Part shown: in pieces, positions 15,796-60,708 of the stretch
How the letters are laid out: every line of letters begins with the position of its first letter
How positions within the stretch are numbered: the stretch's first letter is position 1
Assembly (NCBI GenBank): GCA_964500465.1
Contig: CAZCNB010000003.1
Coordinates: forward strand, 13,882-77,881
Source of the DNA: an uncultured Candidatus Saccharibacteria bacterium
GTDB taxonomy: Bacteria > Patescibacteriota > Minisyncoccia > Phycocordibacterales > UBA9973
DNA length: 64,000 nt
Direction: 5' to 3'
Notes under the pieces: generated by a model
Database searches by the model: none
Seen by the model: only the letters and a program-made list of their open reading frames with translations
Told to the model about the DNA's origin: nothing
Translations under genes and position numbers: made by a program

Positions 15796-15877
15796 GCCCA
15801 GGTGGCGGAATTGGTATACGCGCTAGTCTTAGGAACTAGTGGAGCAATCCTTGGAGGTTCAAGTCCTCTCCTGGGCA
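15796..15877 (+). tRNA. tRNA-Leu (anticodon TAG), type II
   Basis: Acceptor gcccagg/cctgggc with discriminator a, anticodon stem ctagt/actag around the loop ctTAGga, long variable arm, T-arm aggttcaagtcct. Confidence 0.8.
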
Positions 15878-15887
15878 CAATTAATAT

Positions 15888-15920: not shown

Positions 15921-16142
15921 TTGACTGGTATTAAGTATATATGTTAGTTTAAAATAAAATAGATCTAAAAACTCAAAACCAAACTTATTATGCAAACAAG
16001 AAACACTACTTCGTTGCTTGTACTGTGGGGTAATAAAATACTCCTATTACCCTCTAAAGCCGGTAACAGTACCTCGGGTCAAGTTGACCCTCCTTCATGT
16101 TCCCTTTCGTTCAACTCTGAACAAGAAAGGATTCAACATGTA

Positions 16143-16430
16143 ATGAATAAACTGCTATCAGAAGCGGCGGCAAAAAATTTCTCAAACTTCTTTGAAAAGC
16201 TCAGGAATCCAATAAAATTCTCGCACAAAGATGAATTGGGAGAAAAGCTTTTCACAGGATACGTGGCTGTTATAAAAAAAGATTCGATACCCAATGAAAA
16301 CTTTATGGTGGATGAATCGGAAATCTGGGAAGAAATAACCGACATACATCAAGGCACAAGTACACTTATTATAACCCCTATGTTCAAGAGGGCTATATCT
16401 GAGCTCATTGGTGGCTACATAGCGGCATAA
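16143..16430 (+). CDS. hypothetical small protein (96 aa from ATG 16143; the ORF track extends it to 15990)
   Basis: ATG 16143 is preceded by aaggattcaac (SD-like). The 5' extension back to 15990 translates to low-complexity sequence and overlaps a hairpin-rich stretch, so I treat it as leader RNA. Confidence 0.4.
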   Translation: MNKLLSEAAAKNFSNFFEKLRNPIKFSHKDELGEKLFTGYVAVIKKDSIPNENFMVDESEIWEEITDIHQGTSTLIITPMFKRAISELIGGYIAA

Positions 16431-22472: not shown

Positions 22473-24431
22473 TTAATTACCTGAATTAATTTTTTCTTGA
22501 CTTGTAGCGCTAAACACTCCATCAGGTGTAATACCTTTTGATTTTTGCCAAGCTTTAACTTTTAAAGCAGTACCTTTACCATAAATACCATCAGCTTTTA
22601 TTCCTAGTTTTTTCTGGAGGGATTTAACATCATCACCTTTGGAGCCTATCTTGAGAGTTCTTTTTGGAGTAAATGGAGTTTCCATTATTTCATCATCTTT
22701 TTGTCCAGCTGTTAGTATTTTGAAATAGGAATCAGACATATCATTTTCTCCAGTTGTAGTATTAGTATTCCACCAATATACAACTACTCTATAGTAGTTA
22801 CTACCTATGGTTTTAGTAAAGTTAGGGAGAGTAAAATCTGCACTTCCTGAACTTGCTAACACACTTCCTCCAACATCATTTACTAAAATAGTAACTGGAC
22901 TACCATTCTCATCAGCAGGTGCCTGTGTTTGTCCATCTTTTTGGAGATGCTCAAGAGTTACCCCTACATGTTGACCCATTGGAGCATTTGGACAACTCCA
23001 TTTAACAGTGATTTTCTGTCCAGCTTTATAAATTTCACCACCATTAGGTGATAGCAGCTTGAATTTAGAACTATTAGGGTTTTTGGTACAAACCGTTGGA
23101 ATTATTCCAGTATCATTTATACTAAAGTTATTATCACTATAATCTTCAACTATTTGCTGAGTAGATGTGCCAGCTTGACCTCCAATTAGTACATTTACAA
23201 GAATTTTATAGTGGTTACCTCCATATATATTTTGATAATGTTTTGGCAATGTACTATTAAATGTAGGTGGTGCAATAAAACTATATTCATAAACATTTTC
23301 ACTTCCGTTTGAAGATATAAGTTTTGCATAATTAAGTGCTGGAGAACTTCCAAAGAGTGATAGTGTCTGCCAATCGGCGATACGGTCATCCATGACTGCT
23401 ACGAGGGTATCCGGATTTTGTTTTATGTTATTAGTTTTCCATTTTATAGTTATTTTATCGCCAGAAGCATAAGACTCTCCCCCATTTGGAGAAATCACAA
23501 CTATTGAAGGAATATTATTATCAATAACTCCTTGTACACACTTTGTTGTCACTACTGCTAGTGTATGTGGTCCACCGGTGTTATATTTTTCACGCCAAGT
23601 GGTAATTGTTTCGTTCTTATAATCTTCTACTGAAGTTGTTTTAGGATAAAACTTCTGGCAGTATTCAAGTTTCCTATCTCCATATCCTTCGCTTCCCCAT
23701 TGTTGATACGTACCTGCACCAGATACTCCATCAGGATCTGTAAGCCACTCACCATTTGATCCAATATGTTGATTTACCTTTCCATACCACATAGCTATGC
23801 GGGGAGTAAAATCGTTAGTAGGAGGGTAAATTATAGTATCAACAACACATTTTATAGTCATTACAGACAGAGGGTAAGGTCCACCAGTATTACCTGCTTC
23901 ACGCCAACCGTTTATCATTTCATTTGTATAATCTGAAACTGATGTAGTATTTGGATACCATTTTTTACAATATGTAAGTTTATCTAGATTAGCTCCTGAA
24001 GTTCCATCGGGGTCAGTTAGCCAATTTCCAGTAGAATCAACATGTTGATTCACCTTACCCCACCAATAAGCAATGCGTGGTGTTTTGTCCAGAGAAATCT
24101 TATCTTGTACACACTTGTCTGAGACAACAGTATTTGTATATCCACTTTGTTCATAGGATATGGCTCTACGCCAAGTATCTATAGTTTCTGACTGATAAGG
24201 AACAACTGAAATAGTATTGGGGTACCATTTTCTACAATATGCTAATTTGTCTAAATTAGCTCCAGATGTTCCATCTGGATCAGATTGCCATGCCCCATAC
24301 GCATCTATATGCTGATTTACCTTTCCATACCAATACATTATGCGAGAAGTAGTATCTGGTATATTAGCTTGCGCATGACCAGCCATTAGAAGAGATCCTA
24401 GAAAAACAAAACCTAAAAGTACTTTTTTCAT
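22473..24431 (-). CDS. secreted cell-wall-binding protein: signal peptide, 3 tandem ~95-aa repeats, two Ig-like SPNGGE domains, C-terminal peptidoglycan-binding domain
   Basis: Signal peptide MKKVLLGFVFLGSLLMAGHAQA. Three repeats follow, each beginning RI(M/A)YW(Y/W)GKVNQH...W(Q/L)(S/T)DPDG(T/V)SGA...(Y/E)YC(R/K/Q)K(W/F)YP(N/K)T(I/T)SV...W(R)(R/E)...KC(V). Two Ig-like modules are present (ISPNGGESYASGDKITIKWKT and LSPNGGEIYKAGQKITVKWSCPN). The C-terminus reads LKIGSKGDDVKSLQKKLGIKADGIYGKGTALKVKAWQKSKGITPDG, as in PG_binding_1. Confidence 0.7.
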   Translation of the reverse strand: MKKVLLGFVFLGSLLMAGHAQANIPDTTSRIMYWYGKVNQHIDAYGAWQSDPDGTSGANLDKLAYCRKWYPNTISVVPYQSETIDTWRRAISYEQSGYTNTVVSDKCVQDKISLDKTPRIAYWWGKVNQHVDSTGNWLTDPDGTSGANLDKLTYCKKWYPNTTSVSDYTNEMINGWREAGNTGGPYPLSVMTIKCVVDTIIYPPTNDFTPRIAMWYGKVNQHIGSNGEWLTDPDGVSGAGTYQQWGSEGYGDRKLEYCQKFYPKTTSVEDYKNETITTWREKYNTGGPHTLAVVTTKCVQGVIDNNIPSIVVISPNGGESYASGDKITIKWKTNNIKQNPDTLVAVMDDRIADWQTLSLFGSSPALNYAKLISSNGSENVYEYSFIAPPTFNSTLPKHYQNIYGGNHYKILVNVLIGGQAGTSTQQIVEDYSDNNFSINDTGIIPTVCTKNPNSSKFKLLSPNGGEIYKAGQKITVKWSCPNAPMGQHVGVTLEHLQKDGQTQAPADENGSPVTILVNDVGGSVLASSGSADFTLPNFTKTIGSNYYRVVVYWWNTNTTTGENDMSDSYFKILTAGQKDDEIMETPFTPKRTLKIGSKGDDVKSLQKKLGIKADGIYGKGTALKVKAWQKSKGITPDGVFSATSQEKINSGN

Positions 24432-35970: not shown

Positions 35971-38900
35971 TTAAGATATTGTTATAGTAAAGATCAGTTC
36001 ATCGATCTTTACTTCTACCCCACTATTTTCAGCTATATCAATCCGCTCTGCGCCTACAATTTTCAAAAGTTCGTCTTTCCAAGTATTGATCAAATCCTGT
36101 CCATCTACACTTGTTGCAATTTTTAGAGTTACTACATCGCTTGGATTTAACCCTTTTTCTTTTCGCATATCTTGAATAGCTCTTATGAGTTCACGATATT
36201 GTCCCTCTTTTTTCAAATCAAGAGTTATATGAGCATCCAACACAACAGGACCATCTATAGATTCATTATAAATAACTTCTTTTATATTTAACTCATCTTT
36301 AACAATCTCTACAAAAGGGTCATTCAAAACATAGCTCTTTACGCTTAGAGACTTTAAGGGTTGGCGAACTTTGATACCTGCTTTCTGACGAGCTTCAAGC
36401 CCTAGGGTTACCACATGACGAACGATACTCATTTCTGAAATTATATTTTCATCAATCTGCTCTACCTTAGGCCAATCTGAAAGGTGCACACTTTCAACAT
36501 CTTTACTATTTTTTAACTTTTGCCAAATACTCTCTGCTATAAAAGGAGTAAACGGAGCCATAAGTTTAACTGTTGTTTTTATAACTTTATATAAAGTTTC
36601 TTTTGCATCCTTATCTCCATCTTTTAATCTTTCTCTTGAGCGACGAAGATACCATGTAGAAAGATCTTCTATAAATAGATCAAACGGTCTTGTGGAAAGT
36701 GACATGTCATACATTTCCATATTTTTTGTAACTTCGTCTATAAGTTGTCCTAATCGAGCATTTATCCATCTGTCCAAAACATTTTCACTTTTACTTTCTC
36801 CACTATTCTCAAAATTAGTATCTCGATACAATTCGTAGAATGTTACTACGTTTTCAAAGCGAGAAATTATTTTACTTGCAATATCTTGGACTGATTTTTC
36901 AGAGAAATTTACATCTTCCCCTTTCATTACAGGACAAGACATTAAGTAGAAACGTAGTGCGTCTACCCCATATTTATCGAAAAGTATCCATGGATCAGGA
37001 AAATTGTTTTTAGATTTAGACATTTTCTGACCATCTTCAGCCAAAATTGTTCCAGTTGTAACAATATTTTCAAATGGTGCTTTTCCAAACAAAATAGTTG
37101 AAATTGTGTGAGTATAGTAAAACCATGTCCTCGTCTGAGCTATATATTCTGCCACAAATCCTGCTGGGAAATTGGTTTTTTGCCAATCTTCCCTTTCGAA
37201 TGGGAAATGATCTTGAGCGAAAGGCATTGAACCAGATTCAAACCAACAGTCTATAACCTCAGGAATACGGTAATATTCTTCTCCATCTTTTTCAATAGGG
37301 ACAAAATCAATATACGGCCTATGAAAATCTAGATCGTAGTCTTTGTTATGAGGAAAATACGTAAAAGGCAATTCTTGTACTTGCGCATTATTAAGATAGT
37401 TGTAATTCTCTTTATTTCTGATTAGTTCAAGCGTCTCTTCTATGCTAAATAAAGATGCGCCAGCTATCATAAGCCATGCGGGGCCTCCATGGGTAACTAT
37501 TAGAATTTTTTTATTTTTATATTGTTCTTCAAGTTGGAATAAAAAACTCATCGCTCGGCGCTTAACATCTAGATAAGACTCGTTCCCCTCTGGAGCATTT
37601 GCAAAATTTTCAACTGTTTTTGGATAAAGAGTATGATACTCTGCCCATGTACGACCTTCATACATAGGTAGAGATATCTCATGAAGTCGATCATCGAGAA
37701 TTATTTGCTCATCAGATAGACCTAAAATATCTTGAACTATTTTTGTTGTTTCCCTTGTACGATTAAACGGAGAAGTAATTATAAGATCTATGCCTTTATC
37801 TTTCATATCAAGAGCACTGGCGCGCACTTGTTCTTGTCCTTTTTCTGTAAGGTGACTACCGCTGTTTGTAACAGTATTTACAACATTTTTTACATTATGA
37901 TTTGTCTCACCATGGCGCATCACAAAATAAGTATTGCCAGATTTTTTGGTATGAGCTTTTAATTCTTCATTAGATTTTATAAACAAAATTTCACCAGCCT
38001 TATTTTTCCAAATAGGAAGTGGGCTTGCCCAATAACGATTACGGGATATAGTCCAATCTGGAGCACTTTCCATGGTATTTTTGAATCTGCCTTCTTTTAA
38101 GTGAGATGGTATCCAATTCATGGATTTGGCACTTGAAAGCATTTCATCTTTTGATTTTTGAATATTCACAAACCACGAAGGAAGTGCGTAGTACAAAAGT
38201 GGCGTATCGCATCTATAACAATGAGGATATGAGTGTATTATTTTTTCTTTTGCAAAAAGAGCACCTGCGTGAGCAAGGTATTTGATAATGGCTATATCAG
38301 TAGATTGATGATCTTCTTTTGGCTTTGCTTTCATTCCTATAAAATCTGTGACAATATTTGAAAACACTCCATTGTGTTCAACATGGCGTATAAAAGATAT
38401 ATGATTCTCTTCCGCGAGTTTCATGTCTTCTTCTCCGAATGCTGGAGCTTCATGAGCAATACCTGTTCCTTTATCTATAGTTACAAAATCGGCATGCCAA
38501 ACTCTCCATATATTATTTTTACCCGGAATATCAATATCTTTGTAATAAGTAAACACTGGCTCATATGTAAGACCTGTAAGCTCATGCCCTTCAACTTTTT
38601 TTACAAATTCTGGATTTACAAACTTATCTTTTAACTTTTCATATGATTCAGGAGTTAAAATCAATATTTCTTTTCCAGTTTCAGGGGTATGAGATATAAA
38701 TACGTAAGAAAGATTATTGTTTACTGCGATTGCGGTATTGCCTGGTAGTGTCCATGGAGTCGTGGTCCAAGCCAAAAGATATGTTGGAATTTCAGAATCT
38801 ATATTTAATTTAAATTTTACATAAACAGATATATCTGTTATATCTTTATAGCTGTTATCCATAGCAATTTCAGAATTTGCTATTGGTGTCTCACAACGTG

Positions 38901-39483
38901 GACAATATGCGAGAACCCTAACACCTTCATATAGAAGACCTTTTTTATTCATTTCACCAAGCGCCCACCATACACTCTCTATAAAAGAGTTATCCATTGT
39001 TTTGTAAGAATTTTCAAAATCAACCCAGCGACCGATTCGATCTACTGTTTTTTTCCATTCAGAAACATATGTTAAAACTTTACTACGAGCATGCTCAGTG
39101 AATTTTTCAACACCAAACTTTTCTATTTCCTTTTTACCAGAAATACCTAGATCTTTTTCCACTATATTCTCAATAGGTAATCCATGACAATCCCAACCCC
39201 AACGACGTGGTACTCTGAAACCTCTCATAGTCTGATAGCGACCAATAACATCTTTGGCAGTGGAACCAAGTATGTGACCATAGTGAGGAAGTCCAGTTGC
39301 AAATGGTGGTCCATCGTAGAAAACGTAATTTCCTTTTGGAGCATCTTTATCTAAACTTTTTTTGAAAGTATCATTCTCCTTCCAGAAATTTAAAATTTCT
39401 TCTTCGCGAATTGCAATGGAAGATTTTTTATTATCTATTTCTTTTGAATATCCTTTTGTTGGTTTTTCTTCGTTTCCTTGCAT
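35971..39483 (-). CDS. ileS: isoleucyl-tRNA synthetase, type 2 (eukaryote/archaeal-like), carrying an inserted histidine-phosphatase (PGAM-like) domain
   Basis: YDGPPFATGLPHYGHIL (HIGH region), a CP1 editing domain, WTISRNRYWASPLPIW, IDCWFESGSMPFAQ, and KMSKSKNN. Between the ISRNRYW segment and CWFESG lies ~170 aa with RHGET...SPFNRTRETT...VTHGG. The ORF-track start 39558 overlaps the leader terminator; ATG 39483 is the likely start. Confidence 0.85.
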   Translation of the reverse strand: MQGNEEKPTKGYSKEIDNKKSSIAIREEEILNFWKENDTFKKSLDKDAPKGNYVFYDGPPFATGLPHYGHILGSTAKDVIGRYQTMRGFRVPRRWGWDCHGLPIENIVEKDLGISGKKEIEKFGVEKFTEHARSKVLTYVSEWKKTVDRIGRWVDFENSYKTMDNSFIESVWWALGEMNKKGLLYEGVRVLAYCPRCETPIANSEIAMDNSYKDITDISVYVKFKLNIDSEIPTYLLAWTTTPWTLPGNTAIAVNNNLSYVFISHTPETGKEILILTPESYEKLKDKFVNPEFVKKVEGHELTGLTYEPVFTYYKDIDIPGKNNIWRVWHADFVTIDKGTGIAHEAPAFGEEDMKLAEENHISFIRHVEHNGVFSNIVTDFIGMKAKPKEDHQSTDIAIIKYLAHAGALFAKEKIIHSYPHCYRCDTPLLYYALPSWFVNIQKSKDEMLSSAKSMNWIPSHLKEGRFKNTMESAPDWTISRNRYWASPLPIWKNKAGEILFIKSNEELKAHTKKSGNTYFVMRHGETNHNVKNVVNTVTNSGSHLTEKGQEQVRASALDMKDKGIDLIITSPFNRTRETTKIVQDILGLSDEQIILDDRLHEISLPMYEGRTWAEYHTLYPKTVENFANAPEGNESYLDVKRRAMSFLFQLEEQYKNKKILIVTHGGPAWLMIAGASLFSIEETLELIRNKENYNYLNNAQVQELPFTYFPHNKDYDLDFHRPYIDFVPIEKDGEEYYRIPEVIDCWFESGSMPFAQDHFPFEREDWQKTNFPAGFVAEYIAQTRTWFYYTHTISTILFGKAPFENIVTTGTILAEDGQKMSKSKNNFPDPWILFDKYGVDALRFYLMSCPVMKGEDVNFSEKSVQDIASKIISRFENVVTFYELYRDTNFENSGESKSENVLDRWINARLGQLIDEVTKNMEMYDMSLSTRPFDLFIEDLSTWYLRRSRERLKDGDKDAKETLYKVIKTTVKLMAPFTPFIAESIWQKLKNSKDVESVHLSDWPKVEQIDENIISEMSIVRHVVTLGLEARQKAGIKVRQPLKSLSVKSYVLNDPFVEIVKDELNIKEVIYNESIDGPVVLDAHITLDLKKEGQYRELIRAIQDMRKEKGLNPSDVVTLKIATSVDGQDLINTWKDELLKIVGAERIDIAENSGVEVKIDELIFTITIS

Positions 39484-39700
39484 ATATAAAATAAAAACTC
39501 GTCCGCGTACAACAATTATAATAATTGCTATACAAGGACGAGTTTCTCGTGGTACCACCTTGCTTACTTCTCATTTTGTAGGGCTCTACTTCCAAAAAGG
39601 TTTCTTCCCCAAGCTCCAGAGTGATATCTCTTTCATCGCTTATATTTAAAGATTACTATATAAAACACATTTTTGCAAAGCTTGCATTTTATTTATCAAA
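39484..39700 (-). promoter_or_regulatory. T-box riboswitch leader of ileS (antiterminator, terminator, upstream stem region)
   Basis: On the mRNA strand the antiterminator reads CAAGG-UGGUACC-ACGAG-AAA-CUCGU-CCUUG, with the 7-nt bulge UGGUACC inside the T-box sequence AAGCAAGGUGGUACCACGAG. An overlapping terminator AAACUCGUCC...GGACGAGUUUUUAUUUU ends ~8 nt before the ATG. The upstream leader contains GAUAUCA, a candidate AUC specifier. Confidence 0.75.
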
Positions 39701-56391: not shown

Positions 56392-56763
56392 TTATTTCAA
56401 TAGTAATTTAACTTTTTGAACATCGTCACTTATCTGTGTAGCGAGTTCAAGTGCATTATCAAACATCTTAACGTCTCTAATTTTCTCTACAATATCTATT
56501 TCTATATCTTTACCATATGTAACAGGAACATTTCCATCTGTAACATCTATTAGGTGAACTTCTAGAGATTTTTCGCTCAAATCAAAGGTTGGTATAGGAC
56601 CATAATGTAATGCACCTTTGAAAGTTTGGTCATCTACTACTACCCATGTAGCGTAAACTCCATTATCAAAATGGAAATCTCCTGGAATTATAAGGTTCAC
56701 AGTAGGAAAACCTATTTTTCTTCCCCTTCCAACTCCTTTAATTTGTTTTGTTCGATAAATCAT
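56392..56763 (-). CDS. monofunctional riboflavin kinase
   Basis: GRGRKIGFPTVNL, EVHLID, with no FMN-adenylyltransferase domain. Confidence 0.75.
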   Translation of the reverse strand: MIYRTKQIKGVGRGRKIGFPTVNLIIPGDFHFDNGVYATWVVVDDQTFKGALHYGPIPTFDLSEKSLEVHLIDVTDGNVPVTYGKDIEIDIVEKIRDVKMFDNALELATQISDDVQKVKLLLK

Positions 56764-57652
56764 AAGACTGTAAGCGACCTATTCTATAAATTGAAAATAC
56801 TAATAATATAACAGCTATCCATTGAGAAAACGATAAAGTGGTCTTGTAAAGAATTGCGTCTATCAATATAGCTATAAATGGAAAAGTTAATTCAAGAATT
56901 GTAGATATGTGCACTGGTGTCTTTGATAGACCTTTATAATATATCAGAAGCGCAACCATTCCGGTAGACACTGCAATTAAAGCAAACAAACCAAACTGCA
57001 CTCCAGTTGGTGTTGAGAGAGATTCACTGTAACCCATAAATAAAATAACAATAAGAGCTAAAAAACTAGTAAATAAAAATCTATAAAAAGTACTAACCTT
57101 AAAAGATATTTTATTTAAAATCAATTTTGAAAATGTAGTTGAACTTCCCCAGGCCAGAGCTGCGCCAAGCGCGTATAGAGCAGCTATAATTGTACCTTCT
57201 CCAGTAGAAAAACTTACGTGGCCGTTTGGAAAGGTAACAAAATATGCAGAAATGAGAGCAATAATGGCCCATTTTATATATTTTTGATTGAATTTTTCTT
57301 TCAAAAAAATAGAAGCAGTAGTTATGGCAAATATAGGTTGAAGTTTCTGAATGAGGAACACAACAGAAAAAGATATGAAATGTACTTTGAGTAATGCAGT
57401 TGTAAACCAGAGTGTTCCAAGAAGACCACTCAAAAAAGCTACGAGCAATAATAATAAAATTTCTCTTTTAGTTATTTTTTCTTTTTTTAGACTTTTTAGA
57501 ACGAAAGGTATTAATATGACTAAACCTATTAAATGTTCGAAGAATATTATTGTTATCGGTGGTAAACTATATAAATTTCTGCGAATAACTCCATCGAGAG
57601 CCCATAGTACCGCTGCAACTATTATAAGTATAGGTCCATTTATATTTTTCAT
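56738..57652 (-). CDS. EamA/DMT-superfamily transporter (10 TM)
   Basis: Two EamA-like 5-TM repeats. Confidence 0.65.
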   Translation of the reverse strand: MKNINGPILIIVAAVLWALDGVIRRNLYSLPPITIIFFEHLIGLVILIPFVLKSLKKEKITKREILLLLLVAFLSGLLGTLWFTTALLKVHFISFSVVFLIQKLQPIFAITTASIFLKEKFNQKYIKWAIIALISAYFVTFPNGHVSFSTGEGTIIAALYALGAALAWGSSTTFSKLILNKISFKVSTFYRFLFTSFLALIVILFMGYSESLSTPTGVQFGLFALIAVSTGMVALLIYYKGLSKTPVHISTILELTFPFIAILIDAILYKTTLSFSQWIAVILLVFSIYRIGRLQSYDLSNKTN

Positions 57653-58273
57653 TTACTTTTTTCGATTTAGGTAAGTTGGGTGTTCTTCTGCAACTTGTGC
57701 AATATGATTGGCGTATCTTGAAAGAGCAAATAATACACTAGATAATCTATTCATATAAGAGATTGTATTTGGTCCAATTTTTCTAATACCTTCATCAAGC
57801 ACAGATACTATACTTCTCTCAGATCGACGAGCTAGAGTTCTTGATACATCAAGACTTGCACTTGCAACTGTGCCACCAGAAATAGTAAACGATGTAATCG
57901 GTGGGAGAATATCTCCAATGCTGTTTATTAAATTCTCAATTTTGGTAACTTCATTTTTGGGAACTGTCATATCAGACCCTGCGAGTTCCGCCTGAATAAT
58001 AAAAAGTACTTGCTGAATATGGTCTATAGTTTCACTATAAGTTATCGATTTTGATTTTATTTTTATCTTAAATTCTTCTTTGCTTGTATAAACCTTAACT
58101 AATCCTAGATAAGCGTTAAGTTCATCTACTGATCCAAGCGCTTCAATAACGTTAGCGCTTTTAGATACACGATGTTGTTTACAGTTAAAGAGTGTAGTTG
58201 TACCCTTATCTCCAAAACCAGTATAGAGTATATTTTTCTCTCTTTTCAAATGTTTTTTTGGGCCTTTTTTCAT
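57653..58273 (-). CDS. PduO-type ATP:cob(I)alamin adenosyltransferase (MMAB-like)
   Basis: LYTGFGDKGTTTLFNCKQHRVSKSANVIEALGSVDELNAYLGLV, a helical bundle. Confidence 0.75.
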   Translation of the reverse strand: MKKGPKKHLKREKNILYTGFGDKGTTTLFNCKQHRVSKSANVIEALGSVDELNAYLGLVKVYTSKEEFKIKIKSKSITYSETIDHIQQVLFIIQAELAGSDMTVPKNEVTKIENLINSIGDILPPITSFTISGGTVASASLDVSRTLARRSERSIVSVLDEGIRKIGPNTISYMNRLSSVLFALSRYANHIAQVAEEHPTYLNRKK

Positions 58274-58371
58274 ATTTTGAGTATATCATATAAATAACTC
58301 GCGATAATGTCTTAATATTGTTATACTATAAGTAGTGAGTAAAATTATAAGACTTAATCGAATAAAATATT

Positions 58372-59241
58372 ATGAAATTTAGTTTTGAAGGAGGAAGAAA
58401 AAAAATACTAACTACCATTGGACTATTAACTGCTGCTGCGCCAGCAATAGGTCAAGGACCGAACGTTGAGAAGAGTGCGGAAAGGGAATTCGCTAATAAT
58501 AAAAATACTGTTGTATACAAGATAGGTGGTGTTAATAATGGTGGCGAGAGAAAAGTAAAAGAAGTACCCCAAGGATACGTTAAGGATCGTGTTGAAGGAA
58601 ATAAAACATTCTATAAAAAAACTATCGATGGTGGTAAATTAAAACTCGCTAAACCTGGTGATGGAAAAGAAAGTCCCGCGTATAAAAAATGGTTGATAGA
58701 TATGCTACAAAGTGGTACTTCCCCTCAGGAATTAGCAAATATGAAATATATATCCCCAGAAGCAATTCCTGAGTATCAACAATATTATAAGGAACCTGAA
58801 GTGGATGTAGTTTACACAGAAAAAGATGAATCAAAAGAAGTAGATCCTTTTGCTGCTTTCTCTAAAATGGGTGAAAGATTATTTGGACCTGATCGACATG
58901 CAATTGCTGATATGTACACTGCAACAAGAGATAGTAAGGACATTAAAGATGCTGGATTACTAAACACTGGTAACCCAGATCAATACGTTTTACTCAGGTT
59001 CATTGATGGTAATACCGGAAAAGCTACTGGTAAATTGCTAATGTTAGAAGCTTCTAGAGTTCAAGAATTTTTTGGTACTACTACTACTGCCAAATCAACT
59101 GAAGCGTTTAACAAGTTGATGAATGAAGCTGAAGAATTTACAAAATCTTATAAAAAAGGTAATACAACGTATCAGTATTCTCCAGAAGAATTAGTGAAAG
59201 GAGAGAATTTGGGTTCTAATGATGTAGCTGTTAAAAAATAA
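58372..59241 (+). CDS. hypothetical secreted protein
   Basis: Hydrophobic N-terminal segment (ILTTIGLLTAAAPAIG), then a Lys/Glu-rich soluble domain with no known motifs. Followed by a strong terminator. Confidence 0.5.
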   Translation: MKFSFEGGRKKILTTIGLLTAAAPAIGQGPNVEKSAEREFANNKNTVVYKIGGVNNGGERKVKEVPQGYVKDRVEGNKTFYKKTIDGGKLKLAKPGDGKESPAYKKWLIDMLQSGTSPQELANMKYISPEAIPEYQQYYKEPEVDVVYTEKDESKEVDPFAAFSKMGERLFGPDRHAIADMYTATRDSKDIKDAGLLNTGNPDQYVLLRFIDGNTGKATGKLLMLEASRVQEFFGTTTTAKSTEAFNKLMNEAEEFTKSYKKGNTTYQYSPEELVKGENLGSNDVAVKK

Positions 59242-59250
59242 AGATTCTTA

Positions 59251-59278
59251 AAAAATCCCCTAGTAAGGGGATTTTTTA
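59251..59278 (+). terminator. rho-independent terminator
   Basis: aaaaatcccct-agta-aggggatttttt. Confidence 0.85.
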
Positions 59279-59451
59279 AGAATTGATACTTATATTGACT
59301 TTTAGTGCTAAATATGTTAATAAGAGGTCAATTAAAGTACCTTACAAACATTGATTTGTAGAGTGTCTTTCGTCTTCCCTGCGATAATTCGTTGGAAAAA
59401 CGAAAGATATTCAATTATTTTAACCAATAAAACAAATCAATTACACAGTTT

Positions 59452-60318
59452 ATGAAAAAAATGATGATTTTAGCGACATTGGTTCTGGTATATGCCACTA
59501 CCTTCGCACAGAAAAAAGAAAAGGTGGAAAAAGATATTCCCACCTATTACGGTAAAATCCGCCTTATGACCAACTGGGAGAAGAAAGACAGCCTCAATCC
59601 CGGAAAAAACGCTGAACTCTCTGCAAACGGTGTTTACGGCGGATTCGCCTACGACCTTACTATTACCCAACCTTTTGATAACAAAAGGAACTGGGGCCTG
59701 CGCCAAATGAAAACCGTAACTCTGGGTTACGGGATAAACAAAAAAATTTCCTACGGTCAAAGAGTTCTGGACGACAAATCCTACCACCTGGCTGCCGGCA
59801 TTGGACCTACCCTTATGCTTACCCCGAAACCTGACAGTGTGAAGAAAAAAAACAATAATGACATGTTCCTGGGAGCCACAATATTCGCCGATATTATAGG
59901 TGAACAATCCGGAGTGGAAGCAGATGCCAAGCTAATGTATGTTTTTCTCCCCGCTAACAACGACACAGTATGGAGTGAAAATGTATTCTCGCCTGAAATA
60001 CAGGTAAAAAAATTTTTCGGTGGAATATTCGGCATATCCGCCGGATGGAGAATGCTTTTCTACTCTACAAGTGAACGCCAGGTACAAGGCAGGCCTTATC
60101 ACGGCACAGCTATAACTCAAACAAGGTCAGAAATTAGTCTCGGCCTTTGCGCAAAGTTCCGGTCAATTACTTTCATGAGCGGAGTGATAATTCCCCGGGA
60201 AAGATACAAAATTGCAGACAACAGTGGAGCAAGGGCCACAAATTTCTTTGAGGCCAAAACCGGTAAGACTGTTTTGAGTATTGGTTTGCAGATTGATTTC
60301 GCAAACCCTCCGAAATAA
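59452..60318 (+). CDS. outer-membrane beta-barrel-like protein with Bacteroidetes-style signal peptide; GC-rich, probably horizontally acquired
   Basis: Signal MKKMMILATLVLVYATTFAQ. The mature protein has alternating hydrophobic/polar amphipathic beta-strand periodicity. Gene GC is ~47% against a ~32% backbone. Confidence 0.6.
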   Translation: MKKMMILATLVLVYATTFAQKKEKVEKDIPTYYGKIRLMTNWEKKDSLNPGKNAELSANGVYGGFAYDLTITQPFDNKRNWGLRQMKTVTLGYGINKKISYGQRVLDDKSYHLAAGIGPTLMLTPKPDSVKKKNNNDMFLGATIFADIIGEQSGVEADAKLMYVFLPANNDTVWSENVFSPEIQVKKFFGGIFGISAGWRMLFYSTSERQVQGRPYHGTAITQTRSEISLGLCAKFRSITFMSGVIIPRERYKIADNSGARATNFFEAKTGKTVLSIGLQIDFANPPK

Positions 60319-60344
60319 GTTTCATAAACTGTGCCACAAGAACG

Positions 60345-60380
60345 GGCGTACTTCTGAAGAGAAGTGCGCCTATTTTTATT
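60345..60380. terminator. rho-independent terminator between convergent genes
   Basis: ggcgtacttc-tgaaga-gaagtgcgcc-tatttttatt. Confidence 0.7.
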
Positions 60381-60708
60381 GCATTTTATTACTAACGTTT
60401 TCTATTGTCTTTGAAACAACTCTTTTTGTATTATTCCCTATCTTACTTATTAGTTTATAAACAATAAAGAAAAATATTGACGAGAAGAATAAACCTATAA
60501 AGAAAATAATTTTAAAGAAAAGATACGGGCCTCCAAGCAAATTTGTAAAAGAAAGTACAAACAAAAATACAAGCCCTAATAAAAGAATGATAATGGGCAA
60601 TATAAAAATACCCCATATTGCTTCTTTTGTTTGAGAAGACGCAAACCCTGACGGGTTTTCTTTGGCCTCTTTTATTGCCTTACCTATGAAGAAGATTTTC
60701 ATTAACAT
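60376..60708 (-). CDS. small hypothetical membrane protein (2 TM)
   Basis: Two strongly hydrophobic helices. No homology recognised. Confidence 0.4.
   Translation of the reverse strand: MLMKIFFIGKAIKEAKENPSGFASSQTKEAIWGIFILPIIILLLGLVFLFVLSFTNLLGGPYLFFKIIFFIGLFFSSIFFFIVYKLISKIGNNTKRVVSKTIENVSNKMQ

What the first reader, a model, noticed from the sequence alone, without database searches (positions are those of the whole stretch)
59452..60318. GC-rich Bacteroidetes-style outer-membrane beta-barrel gene embedded in a low-GC monoderm-like backbone
GC is ~47% across this ORF, against ~30-33% for flanking genes and spacers. I counted 62/130 G+C in a representative stretch. The product begins with a Bacteroidetes-type signal peptide (MKKMMILATLVLVYATTFAQ) and has the alternating amphipathic strand pattern of an OMP beta-barrel. 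Such a protein is unexpected in a lineage whose other surface proteins here are peptidoglycan-binding, pilin-based or TM-anchored. The flanks, including a native-looking promoter-like TTGACT-17-TAATAA and rho-independent terminators on both sides, are low-GC. This favours horizontal acquisition of a single gene over a chimeric contig join.
Basis: partly seen in the sequence, partly recalled or inferred. Interest (0 to 1): 0.6.

Follow-up and report, generated by a model that had tools for sequence, protein, structure and literature searches.

The report
Porin-like barrel gene in a CPR bacterium
A tiny "candidate phyla radiation" bacterium, from a group thought to lack an outer membrane, carries a well-conserved gene for an exported porin-type beta-barrel whose codon composition is foreign to its genome, so where this barrel sits and what it does is an open question.

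Summary
The ORF at 59452-60318 is real. Its GC is 43.7% (not ~47%) against 33.7% for the window, and it is the GC maximum of the 64 kb. The excess lies at third codon positions: GC3 0.46 versus 0.22±0.04 in 60 other ORFs.

AlphaFold (pLDDT 83) gives a Sec-exported 12-stranded amphipathic beta-barrel. It matches only Gram-negative outer-membrane barrels, and only generically. There is no Pfam, NCBIfam, PDB, PHROG or phage hit.

The backbone is Patescibacteria (Paceibacteria, Nomurabacteria-like). A chimera is excluded, because six independent assemblies reproduce both junctions at 99.6-100% identity.

It is not a recent Bacteroidota import. The 13 detectable relatives whose contexts I examined all lie in Paceibacteria, mostly at the same locus and behind the same promoter motif. 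Close relatives also share a ~122-nt structured leader.

The protein is the fastest-evolving gene of its block (22-46% identity versus 60-95%), yet it is under purifying selection (dN/dS 0.06). GC3 stays at 0.39-0.50 whatever the host GC3.

Best reading: a lineage-specific, exported, pore-forming barrel acting outside the cytoplasmic membrane. The target membrane and the cause of the GC3 signature are unresolved.

The parts
58372..59241 (+). Upstream neighbour 'hyp289': a secreted or anchored hypothetical protein, variable between relatives and of native composition (GC3 0.20).
   Evidence: ORF. No Pfam or NCBIfam family above cut-off. It is 76/45/35/32% identical in L005/L018/L019/L015 and is replaced by an unrelated 518-596 aa protein in L011/L014/L097. 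GC3.
59244..59283 (.). Hairpin with A/T runs on both sides. It is a bidirectional terminator-like site that separates hyp289 from the barrel gene.
   Evidence: 18-bp stem, 5 GC pairs; sequence.
59295..59323 (+). Promoter-like element: -35 TTGACT (59295-59300), 17-nt spacer, TG (59315-59316), -10-like TAATAA (59318-59323).
   Evidence: Sequence. Both blocks are invariant and the spacer is variable in window/L005/L011/L014/L002 (alignment A4). In 100+ loci, exact or near-exact copies of the ATGTTAATAAGAG(GT) motif lie only upstream of barrel genes, including the 22%-identical L097 gene; the three other two-mismatch matches (L011, L025, L026) look like chance. Not scored by the consensus scan.
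59324..59451 (+). 5' leader (~122 nt if transcription starts near 59330) with three predicted hairpins: 59324-59343, 59344-59359 and a long one at 59361-59412. There is no Shine-Dalgarno motif.
   Evidence: Nearly invariant in window/L001/L005/L011/L014 although the CDS is only 35-69% identical. MFE is -35.3 kcal/mol, z = -4.3, with 0 of 200 shuffles as stable. The consensus fold has 33 pairs and no compensatory changes because the sequences are too similar. No Rfam family reaches its gathering score.
59452..60318 (+). CDS of the 288-aa beta-barrel protein. Residues 1-19 are a Sec signal peptide (probable cleavage TFA|QKK), 20-31 a Lys/Glu-rich linker, and 32-285 a 12-stranded barrel.
   Evidence: composition; AF2 pLDDT 83.4, pTM 0.78, all five models 79-83; only OM barrels matched; amphipathic strands; dN/dS 0.064 between L005 and L014 orthologues.
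60344..60381 (+). Intrinsic-terminator-like hairpin (12-bp stem, 6 GC pairs) followed by ATTTTTATTG.
60376..60708 (-). Convergent 110-aa small membrane protein ('TM110'). It usually lies next to the barrel gene. A functional link is unproven.
   Evidence: Present next to the barrel in L001, L004, L005, L011, L014, L018, L020 and L097 at 38-88% identity.

Best explanation
The ORF is a genuine, selectively maintained gene of a Paceibacteria (CPR) bacterium. It encodes a Sec-exported, monomeric 12-stranded transmembrane beta-barrel of the outer-membrane-protein/porin fold class.

Shown:
- It belongs to a small, previously unnamed family that was seen only in a Nomurabacteria-like clade.
- The gene is a self-contained transcription unit: a conserved promoter-like element, a long structured 5' leader (unusual in a genome whose genes are mostly leaderless), the CDS and a terminator. 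It sits in a variable 'surface-protein' slot downstream of EamA and Cob adenosyltransferase.
- The protein diverges far faster than its neighbours but is under purifying selection.
- Its mid-GC codon usage is held steady in all hosts.

Inferred:
- After signal-peptide cleavage at A19|Q20, the barrel folds into a lipid bilayer that is not the cell's own cytoplasmic membrane and forms a small hydrophilic channel.
- Because the gene is accessory (present or absent among close relatives) and the lineage is regarded as monoderm and episymbiotic, the likeliest target is the host cell's outer membrane at the contact site. An unrecognised outer lipid layer of the bacterium itself is the alternative.
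- The GC3 signature is best explained as a property of an allele pool that is exchanged by recombination among Paceibacteria and/or held by gene-specific selection, not by one recent foreign import.
For: Gene is real and not an artefact:
- Six independent assemblies are 99.6-100% identical across both junctions.
- dN/dS is 0.064 (L005-L014) and 0.086 (window-L001).

Fold:
- AF2 with 15 sequences gives pLDDT 83.4 and pTM 0.78, with 12 long strands, short turns at 63-64, 151-154, 190-192 and 237-238, and long loops on the other side.
- Every strand is amphipathic across the family.
- Foldseek against PDB and BFVD returns only OM barrels. The best target-normalised TM-scores are 0.55-0.58, to the 12-stranded NanC and PcoB.

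Lineage:
- The ABC-F neighbour is 68-89% identical to Paceibacterota, Nomurabacteria and Parcubacteria MAGs.
- The window is CPR housekeeping plus type IV pilins. No OM-biogenesis family was seen among the ORFs scanned, roughly 50 of 61.

Fixed locus and conserved regulation:
- synteny; promoter and leader.

Fast evolution and accessory status:
- The barrel is 22-46% identical where ABC-F, flavokinase, EamA, CobAT and TM110 are 57-95%.
- Only 3 of 80 GTDB relatives carry it within 10 kb.
- L015 and L019 keep the hyp289 homologue but lack the barrel.

Composition:
- GC3 is an outlier by z = 3.3-10.6 in every host with background GC3 of 0.28 or less, and is not an outlier in higher-GC3 hosts.
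- The excess is uniform along the CDS. L005 and L014 differ at dS 0.78 yet both keep GC3 ~0.49-0.50, with symmetric S>W (36) and W>S (34) differences.
- The ribosomal protein S6 gene, ssb, three pilin genes, IF2 and ClpB show no such bias (NNC fraction 0.19-0.34 versus 0.70).

Recombination in the block:
- Gene trees are mosaic for EamA, TM110 and the barrel.
- Barrel dS is lower than flank dS in the same genome pair (0.78 versus 1.3-2.1).
Against: - No experiment or expression data. The target membrane is pure inference.
- CPR are reported to lack an outer membrane and its assembly machinery (literature), so there is no known way for such a barrel to be inserted.
- The canonical C-terminal aromatic beta-signal is absent. 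14 of 15 members end with 2-6 polar residues after the last strand.
- Structural matches are generic (TMq 0.42 or less), so no specific channel function can be transferred.
- I could not scan the whole genomes for BamA, Lpt or Lpx genes.
- The recombination-pool explanation of GC3 is not proven. No donor allele in a mid-GC genome closely related to the window's allele was found.
- The leader structure has no covariation support.
Confidence: 0.55

Rival explanations
1. One reading: a recent horizontal acquisition of a single outer-membrane-protein gene from a Bacteroidota (or other diderm) donor into this genome.
For: - GC3 is 0.46 versus 0.22, with foreign codon usage (CTG, GCC, ACC and NNC preferred).
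- The signal peptide is MKK...FAQ.
- The gene is patchily distributed among relatives.
Against: - No homologue outside the clade in 5.8 billion or 1.84 billion proteins, GTDB, viral or JGI scans.
- Every family member whose context was fetched is in a Paceibacteria context. Most are at the same locus with the same promoter motif, even at 22-35% identity. P0014/L096 and L020 sit elsewhere.
- The GC-rich segment equals the CDS exactly, and the promoter, leader and terminator are native and conserved.
- AQ-type signal peptides also occur in natively composed secreted proteins.
- No integrase, transposase or tRNA lies next to the gene.
Confidence: 0.08
2. The gene is vertically inherited, and its high GC3 and NNC codon usage reflect selection for very high or special expression of a major envelope protein, not foreign origin.
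For: - A conserved strong -35, a TG-extended -10-like box, a stable 5' leader (comparable to the mRNA-stabilising ompA leader; from memory) and a strong terminator.
- C-ending codons dominate the two-fold NNY families (0.70 versus ~0.25).
- GC3 is stationary over dS 0.78, and barrel dS is lower than in the flanks, as codon selection would predict.
- The same locus is used in all relatives.
Against: - Native genes expected to be highly expressed (rpsF, ssb, three pilins, IF2, ClpB) show no such bias.
- G-ending CTG, AGG, CGG and GTG also rise, while ATC and GTC do not in the window allele.
- The codon usage is close to uniform rather than strongly optimised: per-codon log-likelihood is -1.11 under uniform usage and -1.26 under the genome's own usage.
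- Translational selection is generally weak in slow-growing, tRNA-poor genomes (general knowledge).
Confidence: 0.2
3. These Paceibacteria are not strictly monoderm. The barrel sits in an outer lipid layer of the bacterium itself.
For: - Canonical OMP topology, signal peptide and lipid-facing hydrophobic faces.
- Purifying selection.
Against: - The gene is accessory. It is absent at the syntenic site in close relatives L015 and L019 and in 77 of 80 related loci.
- There is only one barrel gene, and no OM-biogenesis family was seen among the ORFs scanned, in 64 kb.
- The literature places CPR in a monoderm clade.
- There is no terminal beta-signal.
Confidence: 0.1
4. The product is a soluble secreted beta-barrel (a binding protein or toxin subunit), not a membrane protein.
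For: - No membrane to receive it is known in this lineage.
- The loops carry the most conserved motifs (LP.NN..W, SE.Q).
Against: - One face of all 12 strands is hydrophobic across the family, with aromatic residues at the strand ends.
- All structural neighbours are integral OM barrels.
Confidence: 0.07
5. Assembly artefact: a diderm fragment joined into a CPR contig.
For: The composition steps up at the gene.
Against: - The same gene and both junctions were assembled independently in six samples by different assemblers at 99.6-100% identity.
- Orthologues have the same flanks in at least 8 further samples and in 3 GTDB MAGs.
Confidence: 0.01

Closest known systems
12-stranded Gram-negative outer-membrane channels: NanC/KdgM family (PDB 2wjq), PcoB (7pge), Tsx (1tlw), FapF (5o68)
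   Same: - About 200-280 aa.
- 12 antiparallel amphipathic strands, short turns on one side and long loops on the other, and a polar lumen.
- These are the best structural neighbours (TM-score normalised to the target 0.44-0.61).
   Different: - No sequence similarity (no Pfam or PDB hit at E up to 1-10).
- Overall TM-score normalised to the query is only ~0.4.
- The host lineage is regarded as lacking an outer membrane.
- The last strand is followed by a short polar tail instead of ending in a terminal aromatic residue.
14- to 16-stranded porins (OmpG, CymA, OmpF/OmpC, chitoporin)
   Same: They give the top Foldseek E-values (1e-5 to 1e-6), showing the same fold class.
   Different: They have more strands, and the TM-scores are only 0.2-0.39. 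The general porins are trimeric, while OmpG and CymA are monomeric.
Compositionally atypical, recombining surface-protein loci (for example porin or antigen genes exchanged as alleles between strains; general knowledge)
   Same: - A hypervariable gene between conserved flanks.
- Mosaic gene trees in the block.
- Presence/absence polymorphism.
- Atypical GC.
   Different: Here the atypical composition is confined to the CDS. It persists at deep divergence in hosts of very different GC, and no donor pool has been identified.
ompA-type long structured 5' UTR of a major OMP mRNA (from memory, not tested)
   Same: A long, stable, conserved leader precedes an OMP-like gene.
   Different: There is no sequence or Rfam relationship. 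The function of the leader here is unknown.

Membership tests
Outer-membrane-protein class transmembrane beta-barrel (fold class) | N-terminal Sec signal peptide | tested here: met
   The protein starts MKKMMILATLVLVYATTFA|QKK. Fourteen of 15 members have MKK/MRK, a hydrophobic core and an A/S-Q ending. This was judged by eye and hydropathy; no dedicated predictor was available.
Outer-membrane-protein class transmembrane beta-barrel (fold class) | An even number of antiparallel amphipathic strands forming a closed barrel, with short turns on one side and long loops on the other | tested here: met
   The AF2 model has pLDDT 83.4 and 12 long strands. One face is hydrophobic and one polar in all 12 strands across 15 sequences.
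Outer-membrane-protein class transmembrane beta-barrel (fold class) | Structural similarity to solved OM barrels | tested here: met
Outer-membrane-protein class transmembrane beta-barrel (fold class) | C-terminal beta-signal ending in a terminal aromatic residue (BAM recognition) | tested here: not met
   The last strand ends ...IDF...FKF or ...FTF, but it is followed by 2-6 polar residues in 14 of 15 members. Only P0017 ends in F.
Outer-membrane-protein class transmembrane beta-barrel (fold class) | The organism has an outer membrane and BAM/Omp85 machinery | not testable with these tools
   Only about 64-83 kb of the genome is held. No Omp85, Lpt or Lpx family was seen among the window ORFs scanned. 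The literature treats CPR as monoderm.
Named OMP sequence families (Pfam OMP_b-brl, KdgM, Tsx, Porin families, PorT, DUF3575 etc.; NCBIfam) | Sequence match above the family threshold | tested here: not met
   No Pfam hit at E<=1 for any relevant family in 15 members. No NCBIfam hit, no PDB sequence hit at E<=10, and no PHROG hit.
Recent cross-phylum HGT from Bacteroidota | Closest homologues in the donor phylum | tested here: not met
   Only 4 and 13 hits in 5.8 billion and 1.84 billion proteins. Every context fetched is Paceibacteria.
Recent cross-phylum HGT from Bacteroidota | Absent from the syntenic site in relatives, with foreign flanks or mobility genes | tested here: not met
   The same locus and promoter are used in relatives down to 22% identity. 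The flanks are native and no mobility gene is present.
Compositionally atypical gene (HGT indicator) | GC3 or codon usage outside the genome's range | tested here: met
   GC3 is 0.464 against 0.216±0.038 (z = 6.6). The fit to the genome's own codon usage is worse than to uniform usage.
Known cis-regulatory RNA (Rfam) for the 5' leader | Match at the gathering score | tested here: not met
   The best match scores 25 bits against a gathering score of 72.

The most novel reading that the evidence does not exclude
An episymbiotic CPR bacterium without an outer membrane exports a self-inserting porin. The porin lodges in the outer membrane of its diderm host at the attachment site and opens a conduit for host metabolites. 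The rapid divergence of the gene, its presence/absence pattern and its separately maintained codon signature would then reflect host-range arms races and allele exchange between symbionts. A second, rarer possibility is that a Paceibacteria subclade has an unrecognised outer lipid layer.
Probability: 0.2. Interest if true: 0.9.

Novelty: new variant of a known kind. Interest (0 to 1): 0.62.

Why it matters
Outer-membrane-type beta-barrels are regarded as a signature of two-membrane cells and of their BAM assembly machinery. This is a conserved, purifying-selected, apparently well-expressed barrel family confined to a CPR clade that is thought to be monoderm.

- If the barrel works on the symbiont, it challenges the envelope model for that clade.
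- If it works on the host, it would be a new way for an episymbiont to tap its host, and a concrete molecular handle on CPR-host interaction, which is poorly understood for Paceibacteria.

The gene is also a clean example of a codon-composition anomaly that is stable across deep divergence and across hosts of different GC. The standard 'recent HGT then amelioration' picture does not explain that.

Tried and rejected
Searches that found nothing or were unavailable:
- Pfam, NCBIfam and PHROGs scans of the protein, and a Pfam scan of all 15 family members, gave nothing relevant.
- A PDB sequence search with the family profile gave nothing.
- tblastn against 50,697 phage records gave nothing.
- Pattern scans of GTDB genomes, JGI metagenomes and IMG/VR with the close-family alignment gave no relatives.
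- The broad alignment A2 was too diverse for pattern scans.
- A second word-indexed homology search with the broad profile recovered only 5 proteins. A third, with the divergent L020 barrel, found only itself, so no bridge to a named family was found.
- Rfam at gathering and at permissive thresholds found nothing for the leader.

Ideas considered and rejected:
- The lack of a Shine-Dalgarno motif is not a 'Bacteroidota-like' mark. Only 4 of 61 ORFs in the window have one, and many look leaderless, so this is native behaviour.
- The AQ signal-peptide ending is not a Bacteroidota mark. It is also seen in natively composed secreted proteins.
- A diversity-generating retroelement does not explain the divergence. 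The divergence is spread over the whole protein and no reverse transcriptase is nearby.
- Prophage or mobile-element carriage is unlikely. There are no phage or mobility genes within ±10 kb.
Full report
**1. Observation.**
The ORF 59452-60318 (+) encodes 288 aa beginning MKKMMILATLVLVYATTFAQ.
It is nevertheless the highest-GC 867-nt segment in the 64 kb (window mean 0.337, sd 0.025).
- 100-nt windows jump from 0.27 to 0.43-0.48 at the start codon and fall back to 0.23 after the terminator. The GC-rich segment therefore coincides with the CDS.
- The excess is a third-position effect. GC3 is 0.464 against 0.216±0.038 in 60 other ORFs (z = 6.6). GC1 is identical.
- Codon usage shifts to NNC in the two-fold families (0.70 versus ~0.25) and to CTG, GCC, ACC, CCC and TCC. 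AAA, GAA and ATT/ATA stay preferred.
- The promoter-like TTGACT-17-TAATAA (59295-59323, with TG at 59315-59316) and hairpin terminators on both sides exist.

**2. What the protein is.**
- No Pfam, NCBIfam, PHROG or PDB sequence match exists for it or for any of 15 family members.
- AlphaFold2 with four sequences gave one good model out of five (pLDDT 73). With 15 sequences all five models agree (pLDDT 79-83, pTM 0.78).
- The model has a signal-peptide helix, a short Lys/Glu linker and 12 long antiparallel strands. Tight turns lie at 63-64, 151-154, 190-192 and 237-238, and longer loops lie on the opposite side. This is the classic topology of a 12-stranded outer-membrane barrel.
- Across the family every strand has one hydrophobic and one polar face.
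- Foldseek against PDB and against viral models returns only outer-membrane barrels. The best target-normalised TM-scores are 0.55-0.61, to the 12-stranded NanC and PcoB. Query-normalised scores stay at 0.45 or below, so only the fold class can be transferred, not a function.
- The last strand ends in an aromatic residue but is followed by 2-6 polar residues in 14 of 15 members. The canonical terminal beta-signal is therefore not met.

**3. Whose genome.**
- The window carries CPR-type housekeeping genes. These include a short IF-2, aminoacyl-tRNA synthetases, TopA, ClpB, RNase J, RelA/SpoT, ParB and DprA, along with type IV pilins. No outer-membrane biogenesis family was seen among the ORFs scanned, roughly 50 of the 61.
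- The ABC-F gene 3 kb upstream is 68-89% identical to MAGs labelled Paceibacterota, Nomurabacteria (GW2011_GWE2_34_25) and Parcubacteria RAAC4_OD1_1. Some bulk-submitted records are labelled Saccharibacteria.
- The literature treats CPR as lacking an outer membrane (PMC12102498; bioRxiv 10.1101/2021.05.31.446380).
- Full-text searches found no report of an OMP-type barrel in Patescibacteria.

**4. Not an artefact.**
- The identical allele with the same neighbours was assembled in six further samples by different assemblers. These assemblies are 99.6-100% identical to the window across both junctions.
- Population variants of the protein differ by single residues.

**5. Distribution and locus.**
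- The family is tiny. There are 4 clusters in 5.8 billion proteins and 13 representatives in a profile search of 1.84 billion.
- Every member whose context I fetched is in a Paceibacteria contig. Most lie at the same place: flavokinase(-) / EamA(-) / [Cob adenosyltransferase(-)] / a secreted hypothetical(+) / barrel(+), usually followed by a convergent ~110-aa membrane protein.
- One member (P0014, L096) and the L020 copy are elsewhere.
- Among 80 GTDB relatives fetched through the ABC-F gene, only L014, L018 and L020 carry a barrel within 10 kb.
- L015 and L019 keep the upstream hyp289 homologue but have no barrel.
- The upstream gene itself comes in two unrelated types. The site is therefore a variable surface-protein slot and the barrel is accessory.

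**6. Evolutionary behaviour.**
- The barrel is the most divergent gene of the block. It is 22-46% identical where ABC-F, flavokinase, EamA, CobAT and TM110 are 57-95%.
- It is nonetheless constrained. dN/dS is 0.064 (L005-L014) and 0.086 (window-L001).
- Gene trees in the block conflict. EamA groups window+L014 against L005+L011. TM110 groups window+L014+L011. The barrel groups L005+L014 at 92%.
- Barrel dS in the L005-L014 pair (0.78) is lower than dS in the flanking genes (1.3-2.1). Both observations point to recombination in the region. Codon selection could also lower dS.

**7. The composition puzzle.**
- Barrel GC3 is 0.39-0.50 in all orthologues. Host background GC3 ranges from 0.21 to 0.39. 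The gene is a z = 3.3-10.6 outlier in every host with background GC3 of 0.28 or less, and is unremarkable in higher-GC3 hosts.
- The excess is uniform along the CDS.
- L005 and L014 have exchanged many synonymous sites yet both sit at GC3 ~0.49-0.50, with symmetric S>W (36) and W>S (34) differences.
- By my rough two-state estimate (an inference), decay towards the genomic equilibrium over that dS would need an ancestral GC3 of 0.7 or more. The signature therefore looks maintained rather than fading.
- It is not general expression-linked bias. The ribosomal protein S6 gene, ssb, three pilin genes, IF2 and ClpB are all ordinary.
- The synonymous codon choices fit the genome's own usage worse (-1.26 per codon) than uniform usage (-1.11). 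They fit mid-GC Paceibacteria backgrounds best (-1.06 to -1.13).
- I cannot decide between an allele pool circulating among Paceibacteria and a gene-specific selective force. A single recent import from Bacteroidota is the least compatible reading.

**8. Regulatory anatomy (new).**
- Upstream of the CDS, the -35 block CTTGACTTTT and the block ATATGTTAATAAGAGGT are invariant, with a variable 17-nt spacer between them. The following ~90 nt are almost identical in window, L001, L005, L011 and L014, although the proteins are 35-69% identical.
- The motif ATGTTAATAAGAG recurs upstream of the 53%-identical L002 gene and the 22%-identical L097 gene. In 100+ loci, exact or near-exact copies were found only upstream of barrel genes. 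The only other matches were three two-mismatch sites (L011, L025, L026) that look like chance.
- The leader folds stably (-35.3 kcal/mol, z = -4.3) into three hairpins. The sequences are too similar to give covariation. No Rfam family matches.
- In a genome where only 4 of 61 ORFs have a Shine-Dalgarno motif and many start a few bases after a TATAAT box, a 122-nt conserved leader is exceptional. It suggests specific control or stabilisation of this mRNA.

**9. Mechanism.**
- *Shown:* a real, constrained, self-contained gene for a Sec-signal-bearing 12-strand amphipathic barrel, restricted to a CPR clade.
- *Inferred:* export through Sec, cleavage at A19|Q20, and folding into a bilayer other than the cytoplasmic membrane to form a small hydrophilic channel.
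- Because the gene is accessory, single-copy and fast-evolving in a lineage believed to be monoderm and host-dependent, I favour action at the host interface, namely insertion into a diderm host's outer membrane, over an endogenous outer membrane. This step is speculative (about 0.2-0.3).
- The alternatives are an unrecognised outer layer, a soluble barrel, or expression-driven codon bias in a vertically inherited gene. They are listed with their tests in the rival explanations.

**10. Verdict.**
It is wrong on the Bacteroidota origin and on a recent single transfer.
- The finding is a new, unnamed family of a known fold in an unexpected cellular context, with an unexplained and stable codon signature and a conserved leader.
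- It is worth follow-up, mainly by whole-genome checks for BAM and LPS genes, expression data and a bilayer assay.

Noticed in passing
window 35971-39558 (-): The isoleucyl-tRNA synthetase (1195 aa) has a histidine-phosphatase (His_Phos_1) domain at residues 545-708, between the two halves of the catalytic-domain match.
   Followed up: no
window 22473-24431 (-): A 652-aa secreted protein matches the animal amyloid-precursor N-terminal heparin-binding domain (APP_N, E = 1e-21). It also has a C-terminal peptidoglycan-binding domain, and its signal peptide ends ...GHAQ.
   Followed up: no
window 15990-16430 (+), next to tRNA-Leu 15796-15878: This is the second compositional outlier of the window. 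It is a 146-aa orphan with GC3 0.388 and NNC fraction 0.55, and it has no Pfam or PHROG hit.
   Followed up: partly
whole window (61 ORFs): Only 4 of 61 ORFs have a Shine-Dalgarno-like motif, and many have a TATAAT box 5-10 nt before the start codon. This suggests widespread leaderless mRNAs.
   Followed up: partly
window 56738-60708 and loci L005, L011, L014: Close relatives show mosaic ancestry. EamA has two allele types (81-86% identity within a type, 63-66% between types). TM110 and flavokinase group the genomes differently again.
   Followed up: partly
L011 7986-9776, L014 6462-8018 (-), L097 8264-9874: In some relatives the gene upstream of the barrel is an unrelated 518-596 aa protein instead of the hyp289 type. 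Neither type has a Pfam family.
   Followed up: partly
L015 5721-6422 (+) and L019 5587-6267 (-): Relatives that lack the barrel have, near the same site, a 226-233 aa secreted protein with repeated 'TV.V.G.V.GT' units.
   Followed up: no
loci L014-L093 record titles: Many closest relatives are labelled 'uncultured Candidatus Saccharibacteria' in bulk-submitted MAG records. Equally close ones are labelled Paceibacterota or Nomurabacteria, so the Saccharibacteria labels look unreliable.
   Followed up: no
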